From contig JADJNU010000001.1 of assembly GCA_016714165.1 (NCBI GenBank), positions 1,411,536-1,475,535 on the forward strand: a stretch of 64,000 nt of DNA, in the 5' to 3' direction. Shown here piece after piece: positions 9,091-55,803 of this stretch; position 1 is the stretch's first letter; the number at the start of each line of letters is the position of its first letter. Source of the DNA: Bdellovibrionales bacterium (lineage in GTDB: Bacteria; Bdellovibrionota; Bdellovibrionia; Bdellovibrionales; UBA1609). Under the pieces are notes generated by a model that worked only from the letters and a program-made list of their open reading frames with translations, had not been told where the DNA came from and searched no databases. The position numbers were made by a program, and so were the translations under genes.

Positions 9091-10094
9091 CAGGGCCCCC
9101 TTCTCAAAACAGTTCTACCTAAAAAGGAAGAAACAATGAGCAGCACCAAGCCCGCCTCTAAGTAGGGTGGATACAATTCTGAATATCTTGTGAACTCATT
9201 GACCTCAACTTTGGTTTTTTCCAATCGATCAATATCCTTAAATACATTCTCGAGAGCCTGACCATCAATAGCTCGATAATATTTTCCGCCAGTCTCCGAA
9301 GCCATTCGACCCAGGAGTTCATCATTAACGGCACTGTGTATGGGACGATAGCGTTTAACCTTTCCTCCCCTGCCATCATCAAGGTACACAGGCAACTGGG
9401 CCTGTCCGTCCCGACCCATCCCAATGCTGTAGGTCTTAATACCCAAGTCCCGGGCCAATTCAATTGCTGTCTGAGGATCAATTGTTCCGCTGTTATTTTC
9501 TCCATCTGTTAAAAATATAACAACTCGAGATTTTGCCGTGGAGTCCTTCAATCGGCCTACCGCATTGGCCAAGCCCACCCCGATGGCAGTTCCCATCTTG
9601 ATGTTGCGCGAAGTCTGGACCTGCGCCAGATTATTCATGAGGAGAGGGTAGTCGAGTGTCATGGGCACCCGAGTGTAGGATTCCCCAGAAAACACAATCA
9701 GCCCAATGCGATCTGAAATCCGCCCTTTGATAAAATCATGGATCACTTTCTTCGAGGACTCCAAACGATTTTCCGGCTGCATGTCCTCTATCAGCATACT
9801 ATCTGAAATATCTAGAACGATCATGATATCAATGCTCTCAACATTTCTCTTCATTTTTGTGTCACTCCTTTGAGGACGCGCCAATGCGACAACCACAAAG
9901 AGAAGACCAAACAGTTTCAGAACAGATGGAATGCCGACGAGCCGAGCCCGAAGTGTACCTCCAGCAGCCTTAAGAATTTTGATCGAGCTGAATTGGACTG
10001 ACGGCCTCTGCCTCTTGCGCATGAACCATCTCCAAATAAAAATCAAAATTAGCGGAGCAAGAAAGCCAAAGGCCCAAGGAGATGCCCACGTCAC
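9090..10094 (-). CDS. von Willebrand factor A domain membrane protein (BatA-like)
   Basis: Two N-terminal TM helices; vWA motif LDISDSM ... FLTDGENN; stop/start overlap with flanking genes. Confidence 0.75.
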   Translation of the reverse strand: MTWASPWAFGFLAPLILIFIWRWFMRKRQRPSVQFSSIKILKAAGGTLRARLVGIPSVLKLFGLLFVVVALARPQRSDTKMKRNVESIDIMIVLDISDSMLIEDMQPENRLESSKKVIHDFIKGRISDRIGLIVFSGESYTRVPMTLDYPLLMNNLAQVQTSRNIKMGTAIGVGLANAVGRLKDSTAKSRVVIFLTDGENNSGTIDPQTAIELARDLGIKTYSIGMGRDGQAQLPVYLDDGRGGKVKRYRPIHSAVNDELLGRMASETGGKYYRAIDGQALENVFKDIDRLEKTKVEVNEFTRYSELYPPYLEAGLVLLIVSSFLGRTVLRRGP

Positions 10095-16013: not shown

Positions 16014-16074
16014 GTCAGAGTACAGTACCGGCAGTACCGGCAGTACCGGCAGTCCCACTGTGCTCTGACTTTTT
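16014..16074 (+). terminator. putative rho-independent terminator downstream of htrA; stem GTCAGAGTACAG/CTGTGCTCTGAC with large loop made of (CAGTACCGG)x3 then T5
   Basis: Inverted repeat with one mismatch followed by TTTTT at 16070-16074. Confidence 0.45.
16023..16056. repeat. tandem 9-mer (CAGTACCGG)x3 plus partial
   Basis: Direct reading cagtaccggcagtaccggcagtaccggcagtccc. Confidence 0.85.
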
Positions 16075-16303: not shown

Positions 16304-16609
16304 ATGATGAAAATCACCGATGTTAAGGTATTCCCCGTTAACGAAGAACGCCTCAAAGCCTACGTCACTATCACCATCGACGATTGTTTTGTTGTTCGAG
16401 ACCTGAAAGTCATCAAGGGAAATGATGGCCTCTTTGTAGCCATGCCCAGCAAGCGGCGCAAAGACGGACAATTTAAAGACATTGCCCATCCACTCAATCA
16501 GGAAACCAGAAACGAAATCGAGAAGGCCATTTTTGATGAATTCGAGAGAGAAATTCGATCACTGGGCAGCAGCCTCGATGATTTGAACCAAGAAGACCAC
16601 GAAGAATAG
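16304..16609 (+). CDS. spoVG: SpoVG family protein
   Basis: MMKITDVKVFPVNEERLKAYVTITIDDCFVVRDLKVIKGNDGLFVAMPSKRRKDGQFKDIAHPLN matches SpoVG family consensus. Confidence 0.85.
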   Translation: MMKITDVKVFPVNEERLKAYVTITIDDCFVVRDLKVIKGNDGLFVAMPSKRRKDGQFKDIAHPLNQETRNEIEKAIFDEFEREIRSLGSSLDDLNQEDHEE

Positions 16610-16698: not shown

Positions 16699-16773
16699 TG
16701 GGGTGTCGCCAAGTGGTAAGGCATCGGATTTTGATTCCGACATTCGCAGGTTCGATCCCTGCCACCCCATCCA
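16699..16773 (+). tRNA. tRNA-Gln (anticodon UUG)
   Basis: Manual cloverleaf: acceptor TGGGGTG/CACCCCA, anticodon stem TCGGA/TCCGA with loop TTTTGAT (anticodon TTG), T-arm GCAGG TTCGATC CCTGC, discriminator T then encoded CCA. Confidence 0.8.
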
Positions 16774-16778
16774 ATTTC

Positions 16779-16806
16779 AACCGCTTAACAGGCGGTTTTT
16801 TATTTT
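16779..16806 (+). terminator. rho-independent terminator after tRNA-Gln (AACCGC-loop-GCGGTT + T-run)
   Basis: aaccgcttaacaggcggttttttatttt. Confidence 0.6.
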
Positions 16807-16836
16807 CTAGGGTCATCAGGAAAATCAAATAGTTGC

Positions 16837-16908
16837 GGTTCTACGGTTCTACGGTTCTACGGTTCTACGGTTCTACGGTTCTACGGTTCTACGGTTCTAC
16901 GGTTCTAC
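16837..16908. repeat. microsatellite (GGTTCTAC)x9, directly abutting IS terminal inverted repeat
   Basis: Nine perfect 8-bp units counted; unit also occurs at 18465-18478 (gggttctacggttcc). Confidence 0.9.
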
Positions 16909-18240
16909 TCGGTTCATGGTGGGTAATTCAAAAAAGTCATTTAAGCACAAGCATTTAGGTATCTGAGTCTATACAATTTAAAACTTTTAACGCCGTAAGC
17001 CCTCTTCTGGATTAGCTTTGCGACGTTGTTAAAGCCTTCTGTTCTGGCATTGGTAATGCGGTTGACGAAGTAATTCAAGATTTCATTTCTCCATTTCATG
17101 AGGGTGCGCCTGAGGGTTTTTATTTCGGGGATTTGGCTTAAAGCCATTTGATCTGTAATTCGAATTAACACTTTGGCAGCTGTTCTGTTTCCTTTGATTC
17201 GGTAAAATCCATGGAGGGCTTCTTTGTAATGATAAATTTCTTTTAGCTGGGGATGAAGATTGAGCCATTCATAAAGGGCTCTTCGTTCATAGGACTCAAG
17301 CTTTTACCATTTCTAAGTAGGAGTTTTCGAAGGGGACTGGTTCTTTTGTCGCCAGTGACTTGTTTTCGGTAGCGATTAAGAGCTGGATTTAAAAGCCTGA
17401 GCACATGGAACTTATCAGCAATCATCTGGGAGTTAGGAAAAAACTCTCGAACAAAGCTTTTATAGCTATCTGACAAATCTAGAACGACGTTTTTTACATT
17501 TTCTCTACCAGGGATATGTTTAAGTTGTTCAATGAGTTGCCCCTTTTACTTTTCCATGAGCGAGTTCACGAACACGCTTATTGTTGTAATCAACGAGTAC
17601 GGTTGCAAACTCTCTAAACCCATTGGCTCGAGAGAAAAGTGTTCATCTATGCCAATGGTTTTTGGCCACGGATAATTGATATGCCTCTTGAGGTTCGTCT
17701 CTAACCTCTCATAAAGAGTCTGATAGACCGTCCACGTTGAACATGCATAGGCCCTTCTGACCTTACTGAGATCCGTAAAGTTCTCACAGGCCCAAAGAAC
17801 ACCTCGTTTAAACCTCTCGGTGGTTCTTTTTCCTTTTCTGATTCCTTGAACTGGTTCGGTGAAAGGCTTTCGGCAGGTCTTACAATAGAATCTGCGTTTT
17901 AAAACATGGAGCCAGACTTGATTGCCGTGGATGGGAGCATCGTGTGCTTTGGCCCACCTTCGATCATAAACAGTCTTAGAAGGTGTCGCACACTTTGGAC
18001 AGATTTCAAAGCTGGATACTTTTTCAACCTGTTTGTGCTTTCGGCCAGATCGATCTCTCCCAAATTTTAAAAGTTTTAATTCTGGTAATAATAGAAATTG
18101 TGATATTTTTTCGTGCTGAGGCATAAGTTCTTTTCCTTTCAAAGGTTTGAGTTGTCAGGCACCCAAATCTTAGCTTGAAAAAGTCTTAGGCCTCTTCTTT
18201 TTTGACTTACCGCATCCCACCTCCAACCGTGGAGAACCAA
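16901..18240 (-). mobile_element. ISL3-family insertion sequence remnant (~1.34 kb) with imperfect terminal inverted repeats
   Basis: Left end ggttctactcggttcatggtgggtaattcaaaaaag vs reverse complement of right end ggttctccacggttggaggtgggatgcggtaagtcaaaaaag; transposase fragments inside; no clear target-site duplication found. Confidence 0.65.
16941..18142 (-). pseudogene. ISL3-family transposase disrupted into three ORFs (198+77+76 aa) by frameshifts
   Basis: N-fragment has zinc-finger CPKC...CKTC and IGIDE (first D of DDE); middle fragment IADKFHV; C-fragment TEGFNNVAKLIQKRAYGVKSFKLYRLRYL matches ISL3 C-terminal signature. Confidence 0.75.
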
Positions 18241-18471
18241 AATACCTCGGTCGATGGCGCCGCCATCGCCGAGGCTCGTCCGAACCTTCAGTCCGATTAT
18301 GGCATCCAGGATAAGGTTGAGGACGAATGTTCCAAAAGTCAAAATTTACAAAATCAAAAATCGGAGGTGGCAATCAAAGAGCTGATGAACTAAGTTGTGA
18401 ATCGTCTCGACCGAGAGAGTCATGTCCACGCAACTAAAAACTTCCGCAACTAAATTTGTTTATTTCGGGTT

Positions 18472-20100
18472 CTACGGTTCCATACCCCTACACTCCAATT
18501 GCAGACCTAAATTTTCAGCCAAGAATGGCAAGACACTCTTATCCCGTAAACTTTCAGAGCACAGATAGTTGCGAGCCTTATCCCTTCCCACATTAGACTG
18601 ACCATCTTTTACTATAAAACCAAGAGCGGCGACGAAACTTCCCAAACGTGAGTCTTTGGGAGCAAGCGCCTTATAAACGTCCCAACCAACGACAAGACTC
18701 CACACCCCTAGAATGTTTGCATTTGCGATAAGCCAATCGGTGCTATTTCCGACTGACCACATCAAACACTCAGGAATTTTCTTACGCCAAAATTTTCCAT
18801 CGTAAGTGGGTTCAATATCTAAGTCTCCGCAAAACGGTTTCGTAGGCACATTTGGACTTCCCAAATAGAGCGATTGAAAGTTCTCTCTATCCATCTCGCC
18901 AAGATGAACAAACTTCGACGTGAGATTAAATGGCGGATAACCCATTACTGTTCCCAGAGAGGGATCACTCAGCCAAGCTCCAGCGAAGTTGTGATTCCAG
19001 CCTAAAAAATGTCCCATCTCATGAAGCAAAAGCCACATAACCAAACCTTCTGGATCTGGCCTCAAGATTTGTGAATACTTGCCAATCCGTGAGAAACCCA
19101 ACGCTGTCTGTATAAGAGTCGAAGGATTTTCTACTAACGCAAGCTCGCTGGCCGTCCCCAATCGGCGCGCGACTTGGCTTGAATCGTTGTAGAGATAAAT
19201 AATTCCTCCCATGACTCTGCCTGTTCTCGGATCAGCCGTCACAGTGGATGTTCCATGTTCACCCGTCCATGTGAATTCTTCGCCGCCATGCCACTGGATA
19301 CACAAAATGTTTTCCGTTAGGCAATCCGTGACATTTAGGTCCTGTTTCCCACCAAAGAAATAGTAGTTATGTCCAAAAAGTTGATTCCATTCACCAAGGG
19401 CTCTTTTCAAAACGTCGATAAATCGATTCGGAAAATTTGGATTTACAAGCACTCTCCGTGAACCAGTGCGAACGGGATGATTAAAGAAATAACGTGGTCC
19501 TGGAAACGGCCGAGTATCAATTCCGAAGAGAGCCTGGATCGACAAATCGCCAATCATTCTCTCATTGTTTGGGGTGAAACTAAGGCCCGGAAATATTTTT
19601 GATCCCACAAGGTATTTGGTCTCTATTTCCTCAATCTTGGTCGGCATCAGAACAAGAACGAATTGTCTTTCAGAAAAATTCAAAATAATTTTGTCTTCGC
19701 CGGAACGTGAAAGAGTGAATGCGTCAGCTCCAGATCTCACCCCCCAGACGAAAGGTTCCAAAGTAGGAGACTCAGAGAGGTTTACCGCACTGAACGTCCA
19801 CTCGATAACGCCGCCCCGTTTCGGATCTGAGGGATTTTTAAAAATGGCTCTTTGATTGAGCGGCAATTCTTCCGAAAGTACCAGATCACCGTTTACTGAT
19901 TCTACTTTCCAACTCTTGACCACAAGACCTGATGCCTCGCTGCCAGATGCATCGTAGGCAACTGACGTAATGTTTTTCCATTTTGCTAGGGAGGCTTTAA
20001 CTTCCGAGGGCCACGTCCGAACTTCCGCCCAAGACCCTCGGCAACAAATCGACATAAAAATGAGTGTCAAAATTTGGCAAAAACGCATATCGCTGATCAC
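18472..20100 (-). CDS. secreted zinc metalloprotease, metzincin-like (HEMGHFLGWNH = HExxHxxGxxH)
   Basis: Signal-like N-terminus; extended zinc-binding motif LLLHEMGHFLGWNHNF; possible start at 20088 (MRFCQILTLIF...). Confidence 0.6.
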   Translation of the reverse strand: MISDMRFCQILTLIFMSICCRGSWAEVRTWPSEVKASLAKWKNITSVAYDASGSEASGLVVKSWKVESVNGDLVLSEELPLNQRAIFKNPSDPKRGGVIEWTFSAVNLSESPTLEPFVWGVRSGADAFTLSRSGEDKIILNFSERQFVLVLMPTKIEEIETKYLVGSKIFPGLSFTPNNERMIGDLSIQALFGIDTRPFPGPRYFFNHPVRTGSRRVLVNPNFPNRFIDVLKRALGEWNQLFGHNYYFFGGKQDLNVTDCLTENILCIQWHGGEEFTWTGEHGTSTVTADPRTGRVMGGIIYLYNDSSQVARRLGTASELALVENPSTLIQTALGFSRIGKYSQILRPDPEGLVMWLLLHEMGHFLGWNHNFAGAWLSDPSLGTVMGYPPFNLTSKFVHLGEMDRENFQSLYLGSPNVPTKPFCGDLDIEPTYDGKFWRKKIPECLMWSVGNSTDWLIANANILGVWSLVVGWDVYKALAPKDSRLGSFVAALGFIVKDGQSNVGRDKARNYLCSESLRDKSVLPFLAENLGLQLECRGMEP

Positions 20101-20276
20101 TACTCTGCACTTGAGATCGTTTTAATTGCTCACGCTTGTTATAGGAATATGCTATTCAAAGTTTGTGCCCTTGGCTTCTTTCCGTGTCGAGGAAATACGT
20201 AAACACGAAGTTGCGTAGTCAATTGTAGTCACTCACATCACGATCCCAGTAAAATCAATGGCTTAGAGCGCCCCGC

Positions 20277-20297
20277 ACAACCCCATCCAATTTAACC
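20277..20297. repeat. imperfect direct repeat of tRNA-Gln 3' end/downstream sequence (caaccccatccaatttaaccc vs caccccatccaatttcaacc at 16763-16782); followed by terminator-like hairpin CCCGCtttgtGCGGG + T7 (20295-20317)
   Basis: Direct comparison of the two sites; 14-nt perfect core ACCCCATCCAATTT. Confidence 0.55.
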
Positions 20298-20394
20298 CGC
20301 TTTGTGCGGGTTTTTTTGTGCCTTCGATTAGATTTCATTGACTTTTTATTGGGCAAACCTGCAACTTGAAATTTGCAATAGGTGGGATTACTCG

Positions 20395-21780
20395 ATGGCA
20401 TCAAGCAGTTTGGTTTCAAAAGGTCTGATTTCGCTCGTCCATTTACCTCAGTGGTGCGTTGAACAGCCACCACTCGGAATCGCGTACTTGACTGGGTTTC
20501 TAGAAGCAAAAGGCTACCGCGTTCGTCAGGTCGATTACTCCGTTCGACTTTTTGCCGAATTGCCGGACGAGCAAAAGCATTTTCTTGATTCACACTTTCA
20601 TCTGAACTGGATTCATGAACACAATTACCGAACGAAGGTGGTCCCGGTGATTGAGGCATGGCTTCAGCGCTGGGCTGAGGAGTTAGCGGCGACGGCCGAT
20701 AGAATCGTTGGATTTACTGTTTTGACGACGTCAATGCTCTGCACCCTTGATGTGGTGGCGCGACTCAAGAAACTTCGGCCAGATTTGACGATTGTTTTGG
20801 GCGGACCACACTGCACACGTTATGAGGGTGGACCCGAGATGATCAAACACCCAGACGTGGACATGGTCGTTCCTGATGAGGGTGAAGAAACCTTTCATGA
20901 TTATCTCCAAGCCATTGACGAAGGGCGACCCCTTGATAGCGTTAAGGGACTGCTCTTTAAGAGAGAAGGTCAGGTAATTGACACCGGAACGCGAGATTTG
21001 ATTAAAGATATTAACGCACTTCCGATCCCCGTTTTCTCTGGATTTGATTTGCATCAGTACCGCTCACTCAGCCTGCCGCTCTTGGGAAGCCGTGGTTGCA
21101 TTTATCGATGCAGTTTCTGTTCTGAGACTGTGTTGTGGAAGAAATTCCGCTATCGCTCTGGCGACAATATGTTCCTTGAATTCAAGCAGCACAGCGAGAA
21201 CCTAGGGGTGCACGGATTTTATATTGTTGATTCGCTTATCAACGGCAACTTACGTGAGCTTGAGCGAATGTGTGATTTAATTATCGAATCGGGTTTGAAG
21301 GTTTGGTGGAGTGGAAAGGCCTCGTTCCGTCGGCATATGACCAAAGAGCTCTTAATGAAGATGGCAAAGGCAGGGTGTTTTGGTTTGGACTACGGACTTG
21401 AAAGCGGTTCACCGAAGGTCATTTCTGATATGAAGAAGGGTTTTGAAATTCCGGTCGCAGAACGCCTGATTCGCGAAACCAATGAGGTTGGAATTAAGGT
21501 GGGACTTTTCCTGCTTGCTGGATTTCCTACCGAGACTGAAGATAACTTCCAAGAGACACTCGATTCTTTGAAAGCTCAGGAATCTCATATCGATCATGTG
21601 ACTGCTGGCTACGGCATGGGACTGCAAGCCGGCTCTGATGTGCAATTGCACCAAGAACAATATGGCATCTACTGGAAGGGCAATGATTGGTACTCGGAAC
21701 ACACGACTCCTGAAATTCGTCGGGATCGGGTCGAGCGCCTCCATAAGTACTGCAGCACCCTCAAATTCGGAGTCATGTGA
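20395..21780 (+). CDS. B12-binding domain-containing radical SAM protein
   Basis: CxxxCxxC motif GCIYRCSFCSE; N-terminal region resembles cobalamin-binding domain preceding radical SAM core; start set at ATG 20395 after AGGTGGG. Confidence 0.75.
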   Translation: MASSSLVSKGLISLVHLPQWCVEQPPLGIAYLTGFLEAKGYRVRQVDYSVRLFAELPDEQKHFLDSHFHLNWIHEHNYRTKVVPVIEAWLQRWAEELAATADRIVGFTVLTTSMLCTLDVVARLKKLRPDLTIVLGGPHCTRYEGGPEMIKHPDVDMVVPDEGEETFHDYLQAIDEGRPLDSVKGLLFKREGQVIDTGTRDLIKDINALPIPVFSGFDLHQYRSLSLPLLGSRGCIYRCSFCSETVLWKKFRYRSGDNMFLEFKQHSENLGVHGFYIVDSLINGNLRELERMCDLIIESGLKVWWSGKASFRRHMTKELLMKMAKAGCFGLDYGLESGSPKVISDMKKGFEIPVAERLIRETNEVGIKVGLFLLAGFPTETEDNFQETLDSLKAQESHIDHVTAGYGMGLQAGSDVQLHQEQYGIYWKGNDWYSEHTTPEIRRDRVERLHKYCSTLKFGVM

Positions 21781-22252
21781 TGGCCCGAGTTTTCATTGAG
21801 GCACACATTTGAGAGGCGTCCCTGAAGCTCACCACGAATCTCCGCCACAATTAGATACTTGGATGGCTCTCTCAAAATCAACTCTTGTGTCCCAATTCGG
21901 CCCGCCTCTCTATTTGAAAGTTCAAATCAATCAGAAAAATTTGCTCTTGTATCCAATTTGATAAAGGACATTCTTAAATCGCCCCCGCTTTTGTCCGATA
22001 AGAACACAATGGTACTTGAACCACTCCCCCATGGCTATTGAACTCTCTTGGATTGCAGGCGGAGGCCTGACCTCAACCTATCTTATCAACTACCAAGTGG
22101 GGACAATTGCTCCCACTCATTGGGGTTCGGGTGATCTGGTCGACCGATAAAGAAATTGAGCCCAACTTATTGAAACTCGCTTAACATTTAGAAAGAACTA
22201 TACAAAATACTTTGAACACGGCTAGGTTAGCCACATCAATTCATTGATTTTT

Positions 22253-52410: not shown

Positions 52411-53358
52411 ATGACAGACTTGAAGATTTTTTCTGGAACATCAAATCAGGACCTCGCGGGCAAGATAGCAAGCGAAGCAGGTGTAGAGCTTGGTCGTTGC
52501 GATATCAAGCGCTTTGCCGATGGTGAGATTCAGGTGGAAATCCACGAAAGTGTGAGGGGTTGCAACGTATTTTTCGTTCAGAGCACTTGCCCACCAGTAA
52601 ATGAAAACTACATGGAGTTATTTATTGTCCTGGATGCCTTTCGAAGGGCATCGGCCAATGAGATCACCTCTGTGATGCCATATTATGGATATGCGCGCCA
52701 AGATCGTAAAGTTGCACCCCGCGCCCCAATATCGGCTAAATGTGTCGCCCAGCTGTTGAAAACGGCGGGAGCTGACCGTCTCGTTGTTGTGGATCTCCAT
52801 TCCTCTCAAATTCAGGGTTTTTTTGATGGACCCTTTGACCACTTGTTTGCGATCCCTACCCTTGCACGAACATGGCGAGAGAAATTTGGAACGGGAGAAG
52901 AATTTGTGGTGGTCAGCCCTGACGCAGGTGGAGTTGAGCGAGCTCGTGCCTTTGCGAAACGGCTGGAGTGTTCTATTGCCATTGTTGACAAGCGCAGAAC
53001 TGGGCCAAATGTTGCGAAAGCCGTCCACCTGATCGGTGACGTCAAAGGAAAAACAGCGATTGTCCTGGATGATATGATTGATACTGCTGGAACATTATGT
53101 CAAAGTGTTGACAGCCTGATTAAGAATGGTGCAAAAAGGGCGTTTGCCGTTGCGACTCATCCAGTCCTTTCTGGACCCGCTATCAGCAGAATTATGGAAA
53201 GTGGACTGGAGAAGGTTTTGGTAACGGATACGATTCCCTTGCGCCCTGAAGGGGTCGCATGCCCGAAAATAGAGGTGATTTCCGTTGCACCTTTGGTTGC
53301 TGAGGCGATTAAGAGAATTAATAGTAAAGATTCTGTAAGTGCTTTATTTGAAGTTTAG
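52411..53358 (+). CDS. prs: ribose-phosphate pyrophosphokinase
   Basis: Full-length PRPP synthetase pattern incl. DLHSSQIQGFF and PRPP-binding IVLDDMIDTAGT. Confidence 0.95.
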   Translation: MTDLKIFSGTSNQDLAGKIASEAGVELGRCDIKRFADGEIQVEIHESVRGCNVFFVQSTCPPVNENYMELFIVLDAFRRASANEITSVMPYYGYARQDRKVAPRAPISAKCVAQLLKTAGADRLVVVDLHSSQIQGFFDGPFDHLFAIPTLARTWREKFGTGEEFVVVSPDAGGVERARAFAKRLECSIAIVDKRRTGPNVAKAVHLIGDVKGKTAIVLDDMIDTAGTLCQSVDSLIKNGAKRAFAVATHPVLSGPAISRIMESGLEKVLVTDTIPLRPEGVACPKIEVISVAPLVAEAIKRINSKDSVSALFEV

Positions 53359-53372
53359 GAGAGACCTATAAA

Positions 53373-54074
53373 ATGACATCACAACAATCCGTAGATATTA
53401 AAGTTTCTGGACGTAAGCCTGGCAAGGGCGCATCTCGATCCTTGCGAAGTTCAAAGTTGGTACCGGCCGTCGTGTACGGACCCAAAACAGGCAATCTGCC
53501 ATTCTGTCTCTCCGAAGTTGAGGCAGAAAGATATTCAAAACATAGATTCGACAATATCATTTTCACCTTAAAATCGGACGACCCTAAGTTGAATAACTTG
53601 AAGGTCTTGCGGAAGGATTTTGCCGTTCACCCTCTTTCTCGGCGCCCCATTCATTTTGACTTTTATGCGATCGATTTAACTCAAGAAGTGACGATCAAGG
53701 TAGAATTGCGTTTTGACGGTAAACCACTTGGAGCAGCAGGAGGCGGCGTGCTCAACGTCATTCGTCGTGATGTGGAGATTCGATGTCTGCCGGGCAATAT
53801 CCCCGACTCTCTTCCTGTTGATGTTTCAGGTCTTGGTCTGGGCGAGTCTATCCACGTATCTGACCTGAAACTCCCTCCAGATATTACTATTATCACAGAC
53901 GGATCTGACACCCTCGCAACTTGCGCTGTCGTGAAAGAAGAAACTGCCCCTGCGGCCGCAGCAGGAGCCACAGAAGCGGCAGCGGGTGCTGTTCCCGCAG
54001 CTGGCGGAGCAGCAGCAACAGCAGCTCCTGCGGGCGGCGGTGGAAGTTCACAAGCTGGTGACAAGAAGGGCTAA
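53373..54074 (+). CDS. rplY: 50S ribosomal protein L25 / general stress protein Ctc, with Ala/Gly-rich C-terminal tail
   Basis: L25/Ctc N-domain and beta-barrel C-domain; located in prs-rplY-pth cluster. Confidence 0.85.
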   Translation: MTSQQSVDIKVSGRKPGKGASRSLRSSKLVPAVVYGPKTGNLPFCLSEVEAERYSKHRFDNIIFTLKSDDPKLNNLKVLRKDFAVHPLSRRPIHFDFYAIDLTQEVTIKVELRFDGKPLGAAGGGVLNVIRRDVEIRCLPGNIPDSLPVDVSGLGLGESIHVSDLKLPPDITIITDGSDTLATCAVVKEETAPAAAAGATEAAAGAVPAAGGAAATAAPAGGGGSSQAGDKKG

Positions 54075-54121
54075 AGAGCCCTCTTGTTGTTAGGCTGCAA
54101 CTTTGATGGACATATGAATTC

Positions 54122-54685
54122 ATGAAACTCATTGTGGGGCTGGGTAATCCCGGGGATAAATATAAGCTGACCCGGCACAATATAGGATTCATGGCGATTG
54201 ACGCCATGACTCAGTCTTTCGGTGCAGATTCATATAAAAATGAACATAAATCATTGACCACCAGGATCTCTGTTAACTCCGAGGTTATCCTTTTGGCCAA
54301 ACCGCAGACATTTATGAACCTCTCAGGGGAAGCCGTTCAATCTCTCATGGCTTATTACCGAATTGAAATTCAAGATTTGATGATTGCACATGATGAGATC
54401 GACCTTCAGTATGGAACCATGCGCTTCCAAACCCATCGCGGCCACGGCGGACACAACGGAATACGGAGTATTCATCAAACACTCGCGACCAACGAATACA
54501 AAAGGATCAGACTTGGCGTTGGCCGTCCACCACATGAACACATAGAAATAGCCGATTATGTTTTGCAGAACTTCAACTCCAGTGAAATGAATTTGCTTCC
54601 TGATTTTTTAAATTTGATTTGTGAAGGGGTTGAGTGTTCTATCAAGGATGGTTTTGAAAAGGCGGCGAGCCGCTATAACCGCTGA
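54122..54685 (+). CDS. pth: peptidyl-tRNA hydrolase
   Basis: MKLIVGLGNPG...TRHNIGF ... conserved Pth motifs. Confidence 0.9.
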   Translation: MKLIVGLGNPGDKYKLTRHNIGFMAIDAMTQSFGADSYKNEHKSLTTRISVNSEVILLAKPQTFMNLSGEAVQSLMAYYRIEIQDLMIAHDEIDLQYGTMRFQTHRGHGGHNGIRSIHQTLATNEYKRIRLGVGRPPHEHIEIADYVLQNFNSSEMNLLPDFLNLICEGVECSIKDGFEKAASRYNR

Positions 54686-54702
54686 GCGGAAAGGACATCG
54701 TC

Positions 54703-55803
54703 ATGGGTTTGCAAGTTGGAATCGTTGGGCTCCCGAACGTTGGAAAGAGCACTCTCTTCAATGCTCTCACGAGCGCTCAAGCGGAGGCGGCAAATTATCC
54801 TTTCTGCACCATCGATCCCAATGTTGGGGTTGTCGCAGTTCCAGATCCCCGCCTACCGAAAATTGCCGAAATTTTTAAATCTGAAAAAATTCTGCCGACG
54901 GCTATGGAATTTGTGGACATTGCAGGACTCGTAGCTGGAGCCAGCAAGGGAGAGGGCCTTGGTAATCAGTTCCTCGCCAACATTCGCCAGACAAATGCCA
55001 TCCTCCACGTTGTTCGCTGTTTTGACGAATCAAATGTTATTCATGTGGCCGGAAGCGTGAATCCACTGCGCGACATCGAAACAATCAATACAGAACTGAT
55101 GCTCGCCGATTTGGAGTCCGTTGAAAAGCGCCTCCAGAAAGTTGAGAAAACTGCTCGAACTTCAAAGGACAAGAAGATTTTGGCTGAAGCTAGCCTCGCT
55201 AGCAAGTTTCGTGGTGCACTAGCCGCAGGCAAAGCAGCCCGAACGGTTGAAGCCTCAGAAGATGAAAGCCCGCTCCGTCACGAATTTCATCTCCTGTCTG
55301 ATAAACCCGTTCTCTATGTTTGTAATGTGGGAGAATCAGAAATCTCTGGACCAGACAGTCAGTGGGTCCAAGACGTGAGAAAGCATGCTGCTACCGAGCA
55401 CAATCACGTCATTAAGATATGTAGCTCAATGGAAGCTGAAATTGCACAGCTTCCGGAAAGTGAGAGGGTGGAGTTTTTGGAATCCCTTGGAATCGAAGAA
55501 CCAGGACTCCATCGTTTGATTCGAGAGTCTTATCATCTATTGGCCTTAAGCACCTATTTTACGGCTGGACCCAAGGAAACCCGCGCCTGGACCATTTCAA
55601 TTGGAACCAAAGCACCCCAGGCTGCCGGCGTTATTCATACCGACTTTGAAAGAGGATTCATTCGGGCAGAAACTTACCATTGCAGCGACCTCTTTGCTCT
55701 TGGAACAGAGGCGGCCGTTAAGAATGCTGGAAAGTATCGCGTTGAGGGCAAGGACTATGTTGTCAAAGATGGTGACGTCTTGTTTTTTCGGTTCAATGTC
55801 TAA
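54703..55803 (+). CDS. ychF: redox-regulated ribosome-binding ATPase YchF
   Basis: [16 protein letters not shown]-loop, TGS C-terminal domain, 366 aa. Confidence 0.95.

What the first reader, a model, noticed from the sequence alone, without database searches (positions are those of the whole stretch)
16699..20317. ~3.5-kb segment downstream of tRNA-Gln flanked by an imperfect direct repeat of the tRNA 3' end
The sequence CACCCCATCCAATTTCAACC + hairpin + T-run at the tRNA-Gln 3' end (16763-16806) recurs as CAACCCCATCCAATTT-AACCC + different hairpin + T-run at 20277-20317. This pattern is typical of attL/attR from tRNA-targeted integration. The enclosed segment carries an ISL3 remnant and a secreted metzincin-like protease but no integrase, consistent with a decayed islet.
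Basis: seen in the sequence. Interest (0 to 1): 0.55.

Follow-up and report, generated by a model that had tools for sequence, protein, structure and literature searches.

The report
Variable islet at tRNA-Gln integration site
A 3.5-kb strain-specific gene islet (an insertion sequence plus a secreted zinc protease) sits directly after a glutamine tRNA gene in a Bdellovibrio-like bacterium and ends in a copy of the tRNA's last bases; this is the ordinary footprint of site-specific insertion at a tRNA gene, at a spot where close relatives carry different cargo.

Summary
tRNA-Gln lies at 16699-16773. Its last 10 nt plus 4 trailer nt (ACCCCATCCAATTT, 16764-16777) recur exactly at 20280-20293. Each copy is followed by a + strand intrinsic terminator, and no random 64-kb sequence matched as well (0 of 120).

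Comparative data back the integration reading. Two metagenome contigs are 94-95% identical to the window on both flanks (L018, L019). Their homology stops at 16778 and resumes at 20328, with unrelated cargo in between. L019 also carries an extra 1.7-kb segment flanked by a perfect 20-nt repeat of the same tRNA end, and L018 is its empty site. Five different sequences abut the same ...CCAATTT in this lineage.

The islet holds a full-length ISL3 element, a conserved metzincin-type secreted protease, and no integrase. The ISL3 transposase has three frameshifts, all at homopolymers, so they may be assembly errors.

I found no empty site for the window's own islet. The distal repeat is degenerate left of the 14-mer. 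The right breakpoint lies 34 nt beyond the core.

Verdict: an ordinary, decayed, integrase-less (CIME-like) tRNA islet in a hypervariable hotspot. It is a new member of a known kind and of modest interest.

The parts
16699..16773 (+). tRNA-Gln (anticodon UUG) with encoded CCA; target gene (attB) of the insertions
   Evidence: ARAGORN; Rfam RF00005, 64.3 bits. The body is 100% identical in L018 and L022.
16758..16777 (+). Proximal core (attL). The 20-nt population core is CCTGCCACCCCATCCAATTT; the last 14 nt (16764-16777) are the part repeated in the window.
   Evidence: Homology with L018 and L019 ends at 16778/16777.
16779..16805 (+). Terminator A directly after the tRNA (AACCGCTTAACAGGCGGTT + T-run). 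It is nearly identical to the trailer of the distant contig L017 but differs from the close relatives L018 and L022.
   Evidence: 40/42 to L017 against 36/42 to L018, while the tRNA body is 80% and 100% identical respectively.
16837..16908 (+). Tandem array of 9 x GGTTCTAC; the last unit is the first 8 nt of the IS left inverted repeat
   Evidence: Two to four copies of the same motif lie next to the core or terminator in L018, L019 and L023. L022 instead has an 18-nt tandem duplication of the IS left end.
16901..18238 (-). Full-length ISL3-family insertion sequence. The transposase lies in three frames (16941-17171, 17243-17476, 17546-18142). The terminal inverted repeats are imperfect, and there is no 8-bp target duplication.
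   Evidence: Pfam DDE_Tnp_ISL3, Zn_ribbon_ISL3, HTH_Tnp_ISL3; IR alignment and 3-frame translation; same left end in L022; lowest GC in the window, 0.413.
18239..18471 (.). 233-nt spacer with no homolog found. It ends in GGGTTCTACGGTTC (18467-18480), which overlaps the protease stop codon.
18472..20088 (-). Cargo gene: 538-aa secreted metzincin-like zinc metallopeptidase (HEMGHFLGWNH, invariant VMGYP). The family is small and confined to Bdellovibrionales-like genomes.
   Evidence: DUF4953 Met-zincin, weak; 8 homologs among 5.8 billion clusters; invariant motif columns; weak fold hits to archaemetzincin, MMPs, snapalysin.
20278..20293 (+). Distal copy of the tRNA 3' end plus ATTT (attR-like). 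It is exact over 20280-20293 and degenerate to the left.
20294..20317 (+). Terminator C (AACCCGCTTTGTGCGGGTT + T7). This is an orphan + strand terminator in a divergent intergenic region, inferred to be the displaced original tRNA-Gln terminator.
   Evidence: The gene to its left is on the - strand.
20328..22015 (+). Conserved right flank. Homology with L018 and L019 resumes here (95.4%). It includes the B12-binding radical SAM gene, 20395-21780.

Best explanation
The segment 16779-20327 is a decayed, integrase-less genomic islet. It entered by site-specific recombination at the 3' end of tRNA-Gln.

The proposed sequence of events:
- A mobile element carried an attP with a copy of the tRNA's last bases plus ATTT.
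- It recombined with the chromosomal tRNA end (attB core ...CCTGCCACCCCATCCAATTT).
- This rebuilt an intact tRNA at the proximal junction with an element-supplied trailer (terminator A).
- It pushed the original 3'-end fragment and its terminator (C) to the distal junction, just upstream of the radical SAM gene.
- The recombinase is no longer in the islet. Either it acted in trans (CIME or satellite-like), or it was deleted, possibly together with the ISL3 insertion, which lacks a target duplication.
- What remains is one cargo gene, a secreted metzincin-type protease, plus the IS.

The interval between tRNA-Gln and the radical SAM gene is a population-level hotspot where such small cargo modules are gained and replaced.

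Shown directly: the repeat and its significance, the orphan terminator, strain-specific content with conserved flanks, a filled/empty pair with a perfect 20-nt repeat in sibling contigs, and the absence of an integrase.

Inferred: recombinase involvement, which copy is ancestral, the order of events, and loss of the integrase or its action in trans.
For: - Repeat and terminators.
- Left-flank synteny (M48 peptidase, DUF1844, HtrA, SpoVG, tRNA-Gln) is conserved even in distant relatives and stops at the tRNA.
- L018 and L019 are 94-95% identical on both flanks. The breaks fall at 16778 and 20328, with different cargo inside: Fic and secreted proteins.
- L019 and L023 carry an extra 1.7 kb flanked by a perfect 20-nt repeat of the tRNA end. 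L018 is its empty site.
- Five classes of sequence abut the same ...CCAATTT.
- The window's proximal trailer matches the distant L017 (tRNA body 80% identical) better than it matches the close L018. This fits an imported trailer.
- In the distant relative L001, a weak integrase-like ORF and phage genes lie right after tRNA-Gln.
- Four metagenome contigs break in or just after the tRNA.
- Protease homologs sit in unrelated contexts elsewhere.
- Known analogues are the Dehalococcoides ssrA islands, which include integrase-less ones (PMC3146451), and the CIME concept (PMC5704250).
Against: - I found no contig with the predicted empty site (tRNA-Gln, then terminator C, then the radical SAM gene).
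- The distal copy is exact for only 14 nt. Its left side resembles neither the tRNA nor the right end of the L019 element.
- Against L018, the right breakpoint lies 34 nt past the core. L018 has no distal repeat at all, so whole-segment replacement by homologous recombination between the conserved flanks explains the W/L018 difference equally well.
- There is no integrase in the islet or among the window ORFs that were scanned or that are syntenic with relatives' gene calls.
- No phage attP with this core turned up in IMG/VR.
- The cargo's composition is typical of the genome.
- The sequence shared with L017 extends only about 29 nt beyond the core.
Confidence: 0.65

Rival explanations
1. Cassette replacement by homologous recombination. 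The whole interval between the conserved tRNA/SpoVG flank and the radical SAM flank was swapped in from a related donor. The distal tRNA-end copy is merely a relic carried in that donor haplotype (an older event elsewhere), not the scar of an insertion into this chromosome.
For: - The W/L018 breakpoints (16778 and 20328) enclose the distal repeat and terminator C, and L018 has no distal repeat.
- The flanks are 94-98% identical and would support homologous recombination.
- The cargo has native-like composition, GC 0.456 against 0.459.
- The trailer module is shared with the distant L017 over only about 43 nt.
Against: This rival still needs an earlier tRNA-end duplication to create the distal copy, so it relocates the integration event rather than replacing it. 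The left breakpoint coincides to the base with the end of the core used as a perfect repeat in L019. That points to the core itself being the recombination site.
Confidence: 0.2
2. IS-mediated delivery or rearrangement. The ISL3 element brought in or reshuffled the protease segment by composite or one-ended transposition, or by adjacent deletion. On this view the tRNA-end repeat is incidental.
For: - The IS abuts the tRNA trailer and has no 8-bp target duplication.
- The same IS end lies after the tRNA-Gln terminator in L022.
- GGTTCTAC repeats that match the IS terminus lie next to the core in IS-free relatives.
Against: The repeated tRNA-end sequence is not at the IS ends. There is only one IS copy in the window. 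ISL3 elements duplicate 8 bp of target (established knowledge of the family), not a 14-20-nt tRNA end. The L019 insertion, with its perfect 20-nt repeat, contains no IS.
Confidence: 0.07
3. Chance or convergence. Two unrelated intrinsic terminators happen to be preceded by a similar 14-mer. Alternatively, the distal copy is the last remnant of a duplicated tRNA-Gln gene.
For: 13-nt exact repeats do occur by chance within this 5 kb (family D7). Part of the extended similarity comes from both sequences being GC stems followed by T-runs.
Against: - 0 of 120 random 64-kb sequences reach the observed score.
- The copy sits at a strain-specific breakpoint.
- The same core is a perfect repeat in a sibling contig.
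- There is no residual similarity to the tRNA body upstream of the distal copy: score 14 against a shuffle mean of 15.5. That argues against a decayed second gene.
Confidence: 0.05

Closest known systems
Tandem genomic islands at the Dehalococcoides tmRNA gene (ssrA-GIs; PMC3146451)
   Same: Islands accumulate downstream of a small RNA gene. They are bounded by the gene's 3' end and a roughly 20-bp direct repeat of it. Content differs between strains on conserved flanks. A subset lacks any integration module.
   Different: The target here is tRNA-Gln, not ssrA. The modules are very small (1.7-3.5 kb). No module seen here carries a recombinase. The window has only one distal repeat, and it is degenerate. 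The cargo is secreted proteins or toxins rather than dehalogenases.
CIMEs (cis-mobilizable elements: decayed ICE/IME that keep attL and attR but lost integrase and transfer genes; PMC5704250, PMC6323972)
   Same: The islet is flanked by att-like repeats at a tRNA 3' end, lacks integration and transfer genes, and sits where accretion with other elements occurs (the L019 tandem arrangement).
   Different: I identified no parental ICE, IME or prophage and no cognate integrase. Mobility is untested. The distal site is degenerate and may no longer function.
Prophages and genomic islands that integrate into tRNA 3' ends via tyrosine integrases (general class; sublocation rules of Williams 2002, cited from my own knowledge)
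   Same: The duplicated segment covers the tRNA 3' end. The tRNA gene stays intact. An element-supplied trailer replaces the native one.
   Different: There are no integrase, excisionase or phage genes here. A distant relative (L001) has a phage-like element with a weak integrase match at the same tRNA, but with a different trailer.
ISL3-family insertion sequences
   Same: Transposase with zinc ribbon, HTH and DDE_Tnp_ISL3 domains; length about 1.34 kb; imperfect terminal inverted repeats.
   Different: There is no 8-bp target duplication. The reading frame is broken three times, possibly by sequencing error. The terminal octamer is amplified into a 9-copy tandem array.

Membership tests
tRNA-targeted integrative island (attL/attR) | Lies directly at the 3' end of an intact tRNA gene | tested here: met
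   tRNA-Gln 16699-16773 is intact. The variable DNA starts at 16779.
tRNA-targeted integrative island (attL/attR) | Direct repeat of the tRNA 3' end at the distal boundary | tested here: met
   14 nt exact, 21 of 23 aligned positions; best hit in the window; 0 of 120 random sequences as good. Degenerate left of the 14-mer.
tRNA-targeted integrative island (attL/attR) | Segment absent from close relatives that share both flanks | tested here: met
   L018 and L019 share 94-95% identical flanks but have unrelated content between window positions 16778 and 20328.
tRNA-targeted integrative island (attL/attR) | Unoccupied site (tRNA followed directly by the right flank) in a relative | tested here: inconclusive
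   None found for this islet among L017-L028. A clean empty/filled pair does exist for the neighbouring 1.7-kb module (L018 against L019 and L023). The database scans were capped.
tRNA-targeted integrative island (attL/attR) | Encodes its own integrase or recombinase | tested here: not met
   Only ISL3 transposase fragments and the protease are present. The remaining non-coding stretches are no longer than about 240 nt.
tRNA-targeted integrative island (attL/attR) | Atypical base composition | tested here: inconclusive
   Islet GC is 0.438 against 0.459 for the window. The difference comes from the IS (0.413); the protease gene (0.456) is typical.
CIME (cis-mobilizable element) | No integration or transfer genes, but attL and attR retained | tested here: inconclusive
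   Absence of these genes is shown. attL is intact. attR keeps only a 14-nt exact core, so its function cannot be judged.
CIME (cis-mobilizable element) | Excision or mobilisation by a cognate integrase supplied in trans | not testable with these tools
   This needs the full genome, the reads, or an experiment. No integrase was found among the window ORFs scanned with Pfam or syntenic with relatives' gene calls.
ISL3 insertion sequence | ISL3 transposase domains and terminal inverted repeats | tested here: met
   PF01610, PF14690, PF13542. The inverted repeats align over about 40 nt. The same left end is present in L022.
ISL3 insertion sequence | 8-bp target-site duplication and an uninterrupted transposase frame | tested here: not met
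   The flanks are GGTTCTAC and AAAATACC (or CGGTTCAT and TCCAACCG with the shorter ends). There are three frameshifts at 4-nt homopolymers.
Metzincin zinc metallopeptidase | HEXXHXXGXXH zinc-binding motif and a downstream Met-turn | tested here: met
   H356 E357 H360 G363 H366 and V381 M382 G383 Y384 are invariant in all 8 family members.
Metzincin zinc metallopeptidase | Significant profile or fold match to a curated metzincin family | tested here: inconclusive
   Pfam DUF4953 scores 16.4 bits, below its cut-off of 24.2. No PDB sequence hit. The model has pLDDT 64, and the fold hits to archaemetzincin, MMPs and snapalysin have E of 0.018 or weaker.

The most novel reading that the evidence does not exclude
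The interval between tRNA-Gln and the radical SAM gene in this Bdellovibrionales lineage may act as a cassette-exchange site. Small (1.7-3.5 kb) integrase-less modules, each carrying a secreted protein or toxin gene, would be captured and swapped at the fixed core ...CCACCCCATCCAATTT by a recombinase encoded elsewhere. The GGTTCTAC repeats that sit next to the core in every haplotype would serve as accessory protein-binding sites. This would resemble an integron-like capture system anchored on a tRNA gene, supplying a predator's secreted arsenal.
Probability: 0.1. Interest if true: 0.6.

Novelty: new member of a known kind. Interest (0 to 1): 0.3.

Why it matters
It documents tRNA-Gln as an active insertion hotspot in an uncultured Bdellovibrio-like lineage. 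It identifies a lineage-restricted secreted metzincin as strain-variable, horizontally shuffled cargo, which bears on how predatory bacteria diversify their hydrolytic arsenal. It also supplies a defined core sequence and a filled/empty pair that could be used to look for the responsible recombinase. Mechanistically it is a textbook class of event, so the value lies in annotation and population genetics rather than in new concepts.

Tried and rejected
- Exact-protein look-ups of the window's protease and radical SAM proteins, with two alternative start codons each, found nothing on record.
- The genome-contig scan with HtrA returned only distant relatives of 55% identity or less. They confirm the left synteny but give no empty site.
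- Contexts of protease homologs (L007-L012) and of radical SAM homologs at 87% and 66% identity (L013-L016) are unrelated to this locus. They contain no tRNA-Gln and no core motif.
- IMG/VR scans for the core plus trailer, the 20-nt core, and the GGTTCTAC repeat gave no hits. The 16-nt core gave 28 hits that look like chance matches, mostly inside unrelated sequence with no tRNA context. One of them (L038/L054) is an inverted repeat within a single 145-kb viral contig.
- Rfam found only the tRNA, both in the window region and in the L019 islet.
- I found no further core copies inside the islet or in 20.3-52.5 kb.
- I tested whether the distal copy is a decayed second tRNA gene. There is no similarity to the tRNA body, so I rejected this.
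- I tested whether the right ends of the window islet and the L019 module are homologous. There is no significant similarity.
- I tested whether the 326-aa and 340-aa proteins in the L018 and L019 modules are recombinases. They have signal-peptide-like N-termini and no Pfam or PHROG hits, so I rejected this.
- The PDB sequence search for the protease found nothing.
Full report
**Observation.** tRNA-Gln(UUG) lies at 16699-16773 on the + strand (ARAGORN; Rfam 64.3 bits), downstream of spoVG (16304-16609, Pfam). The 14-mer ACCCCATCCAATTT comprises the last 10 nt of the tRNA, including the encoded CCA, plus 4 trailer nt. It occurs exactly twice in the window, at 16764-16777 and 20280-20293. Each copy is followed at once by a + strand hairpin plus T-run: 16779-16797 and 20294-20312 (folds of -11.4 and -16.9 kcal/mol). 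A local alignment of 16735-16815 against the whole window on both strands scores 36 at the second site, against 25 for the next best hit. None of 120 Markov-1 random 64-kb sequences reached 36.

**Contents.** Five features lie between the two copies.
- Terminator A (16779-16805).
- A perfect 9-copy array of GGTTCTAC (16837-16908).
- A 1.34-kb ISL3-family element (16901-18238). Its transposase carries the zinc-ribbon, HTH and DDE_Tnp_ISL3 domains but is split over three frames. It has imperfect inverted repeats of about 40 nt and no 8-bp target duplication.
- A 233-nt spacer.
- A 538-aa gene on the - strand (18472-20088).

That protein has a signal-peptide-like N-terminus. Its HEMGHxxGWxH motif and a VMGYP stretch are invariant in all eight family members. 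Pfam gives only a weak Met-zincin match, and the fold hits to archaemetzincin, MMPs and snapalysin are weak and recurrent. The label 'metzincin-like' rests mainly on the motif.

There is no integrase, and the remaining non-coding stretches are too short to hide one. All three transposase frameshifts sit at 4-nt homopolymers. The source is a MAG with a 2.42-Mb contig, so these may be long-read assembly errors rather than decay. That is an inference.

**Organism and distant relatives.** The protease and radical SAM proteins match a 'MAG: Bdellovibrionales bacterium'. In distant relatives (HtrA 47-55% identical; L001, L002), about 15 kb of left-flank synteny runs up to tRNA-Gln and stops there. 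This stretch includes the Bat/MoxR operon, an M48 peptidase, DUF1844, HtrA and SpoVG. L001 has a weak integrase-like ORF, an M15 peptidase and a tail-fibre gene directly after the tRNA. L002 has katG and other genes there.

**Close relatives.** These are the decisive comparison. Contigs encoding an identical SpoVG were recovered.
- L018 and L019 are 94-95% identical to the window from 6.2 kb up to 16778 (tRNA + ATTT + C), and again from 20328 through the radical SAM gene.
- Between these points L018 has 3.5 kb of unrelated DNA: Fic, a 77-aa ORF and a secreted 326-aa protein.
- L019 and L023 have the L018 content plus a further 1.7 kb next to the tRNA: a DUF2283 fragment and a secreted 340-aa protein.
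- That extra segment is flanked by a perfect 20-nt direct repeat, CCTGCCACCCCATCCAATTT. One copy is the tRNA end, and the other is followed by the L018-type trailer. L018 is therefore its empty site.
- L022 has the L018-type terminator followed by the same ISL3 left end.
- A sister species (SpoVG 87%; L025-L028) keeps the tRNA and ATTT and then continues with yet another sequence.
- An alignment of all junctions shows that everything up to ...CCAATTT is shared. After it, five sequence classes follow; three of these are variant terminators.
- Four contigs from other samples end in or just after the tRNA (L020, L021, L025, L028), as expected at a heterogeneous or repeat-bearing locus.

**Which copy is ancestral.** The window's proximal trailer (terminator A) matches 40 of 42 positions in L017. 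L017 is a more distant contig, with a tRNA body 80% identical and spoVG 74% identical at the nucleotide level. The same trailer matches only 36 of 42 positions in L018, whose tRNA body is 100% identical. This incongruence fits the integration model, in which the trailer to the right of the core at attL is imported. The distal terminator C is a + strand terminator with no + strand gene upstream of it, lying in a divergent intergenic region. That fits a displaced original tRNA terminator. Upstream of the distal core there is no similarity to the tRNA body, which rules out a decayed second tRNA gene.

**Limits.**
- I found no contig in which tRNA-Gln is directly followed by terminator C and the radical SAM gene.
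- Against L018, the right breakpoint (20328) lies 34 nt to the right of the distal core, and L018 has no distal repeat. The W/L018 difference could therefore equally be a whole-cassette replacement by homologous recombination between the conserved flanks, with the tRNA-end duplication dating from an earlier event in the window's haplotype.
- The distal copy is exact for only 14 nt. Its left side resembles neither the tRNA nor the right end of the L019 module.
- Composition is atypical only for the IS: GC 0.413, against 0.456 for the protease and 0.459 for the window.
- No phage or element with a matching attP was found in IMG/VR.
- The Pfam scans of window ORFs and the gene calls on syntenic relatives revealed no integrase.

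**Mechanism.** The most likely history, at confidence 0.65, is a site-specific insertion at the tRNA-Gln 3' end. It regenerated the tRNA and displaced the old end and terminator. The recombinase was later lost, or was never part of the module (CIME-like, served in trans). The ISL3 element inserted afterwards, and its missing target duplication hints at an adjacent rearrangement. The rivals are cassette replacement by homologous recombination (0.2), which relocates rather than removes the integration event; IS-mediated delivery (0.07); and chance or a decayed duplicate tRNA (0.05).

**Comparison with known systems.** The closest analogues are the tandem ssrA islands of Dehalococcoides. These are bounded by 20-bp repeats of the ssrA 3' end, and several lack integration modules (PMC3146451). 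The other close analogue is the CIME, a decayed ICE or IME that keeps its att sites (PMC5704250). The islet meets four defining features of a tRNA-associated island: position, repeat, variability on conserved flanks, and an intact tRNA. It fails one, having no integrase of its own. CIME membership cannot be settled without testing mobility.

**Verdict.** This is a new member of a known kind. Interest is modest (0.3). It is raised slightly by the population-level picture of small integrase-less modules carrying secreted proteins being exchanged at one fixed core, and by the unexplained GGTTCTAC repeats that accompany the core in every haplotype.

Noticed in passing
window 16837-16908 and 18467-18480; L018 10644-10659; L019 5868-5895 and 7610-7625; L022 about 9998-10033: The octamer GGTTCTAC is repeated 9 times right before the ISL3 element and equals the first 8 nt of its left inverted repeat. 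Two to four copies lie next to the tRNA core or terminator in relatives that have no IS there. L022 instead has an 18-nt tandem duplication of the IS end. These could be IS footprints, a preferred IS target, slippage products, or protein-binding sites. This remains unexplained.
   Followed up: partly
window about 17300-17310, 17540-17550, 17636-17645: All three frameshifts that break the ISL3 transposase lie at 4-nt homopolymers. In a long-contig MAG these may be assembly errors, so the IS may be intact rather than a remnant.
   Followed up: partly
window 16901 and 18238 (IS ends): The ISL3 element has no 8-bp target-site duplication. This suggests an IS-associated deletion or rearrangement next to it, which could have removed other islet genes.
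   Followed up: no
window 52411-55803: prs, rplY (L25/Ctc), a 187-aa ORF (not scanned, probably pth) and ychF lie about 35 kb downstream of spoVG and tRNA-Gln. In many bacteria spoVG and prs-ctc-pth are neighbours (my own knowledge). The whole 16.8-50 kb stretch of accessory genes (radical SAM, GMC oxidoreductase, erythromycin-esterase fusion, LPMO-like, AhpCF, S8 and S41 peptidases) may therefore be older accreted material after the tRNA. I found no further tRNA-end copies there.
   Followed up: partly
window about 22015-22250; L019 12561-15557: A second break in homology follows the radical SAM gene. L019 continues with a 1378-aa CUB/RCC1-repeat protein. The window keeps only about 100-300 nt of that region and then has a GMC oxidoreductase on the opposite strand. 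The radical SAM gene is thus a conserved block between two variable segments. Its 87% homolog in L013 sits in an unrelated three-gene radical SAM cluster.
   Followed up: partly
L019 7150-7561: The right end of the 1.7-kb L019 module is about 410 nt of GC-rich non-coding DNA ending in a tRNA-like 3' half. Its similarity to the tRNA-Gln body from the anticodon arm onward is marginal (p about 0.013). There is no Rfam match and no ARAGORN call.
   Followed up: partly
L017 584-626 and 790-1440: In a more distant Bdellovibrionales contig, the tRNA-Gln trailer and terminator are nearly identical to those of the window, while the tRNA body is only 80% identical. On reading the sequence, ORFs resembling IS66-family accessory proteins follow about 150 nt later; I did not scan them against any family library.
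   Followed up: partly
L026 2342-2823: In the sister species, the sequence after ...CCAATTT contains repeated CCGAAATC motifs and a partial ORF with a weak transposase match (PHROG 2199, E = 0.0015).
   Followed up: no
L001 12264-21464: A distant relative has a 377-aa ORF with weak integrase matches, an M15 peptidase and an S74 tail-fibre chaperone protein directly after tRNA-Gln. This is probably a prophage using the same tRNA as its attachment site.
   Followed up: partly
L010 9648-11623: The 46% homolog of the protease lies 276 nt downstream of a tRNA-Asp gene on the same strand. The orientation differs from that in the window, so this is probably coincidence.
   Followed up: no
window 16023-16053: A perfect 9-nt tandem repeat (CAGTACCGG, 3.4 copies) lies in the intergenic region between the HtrA-like gene and spoVG.
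   Followed up: no
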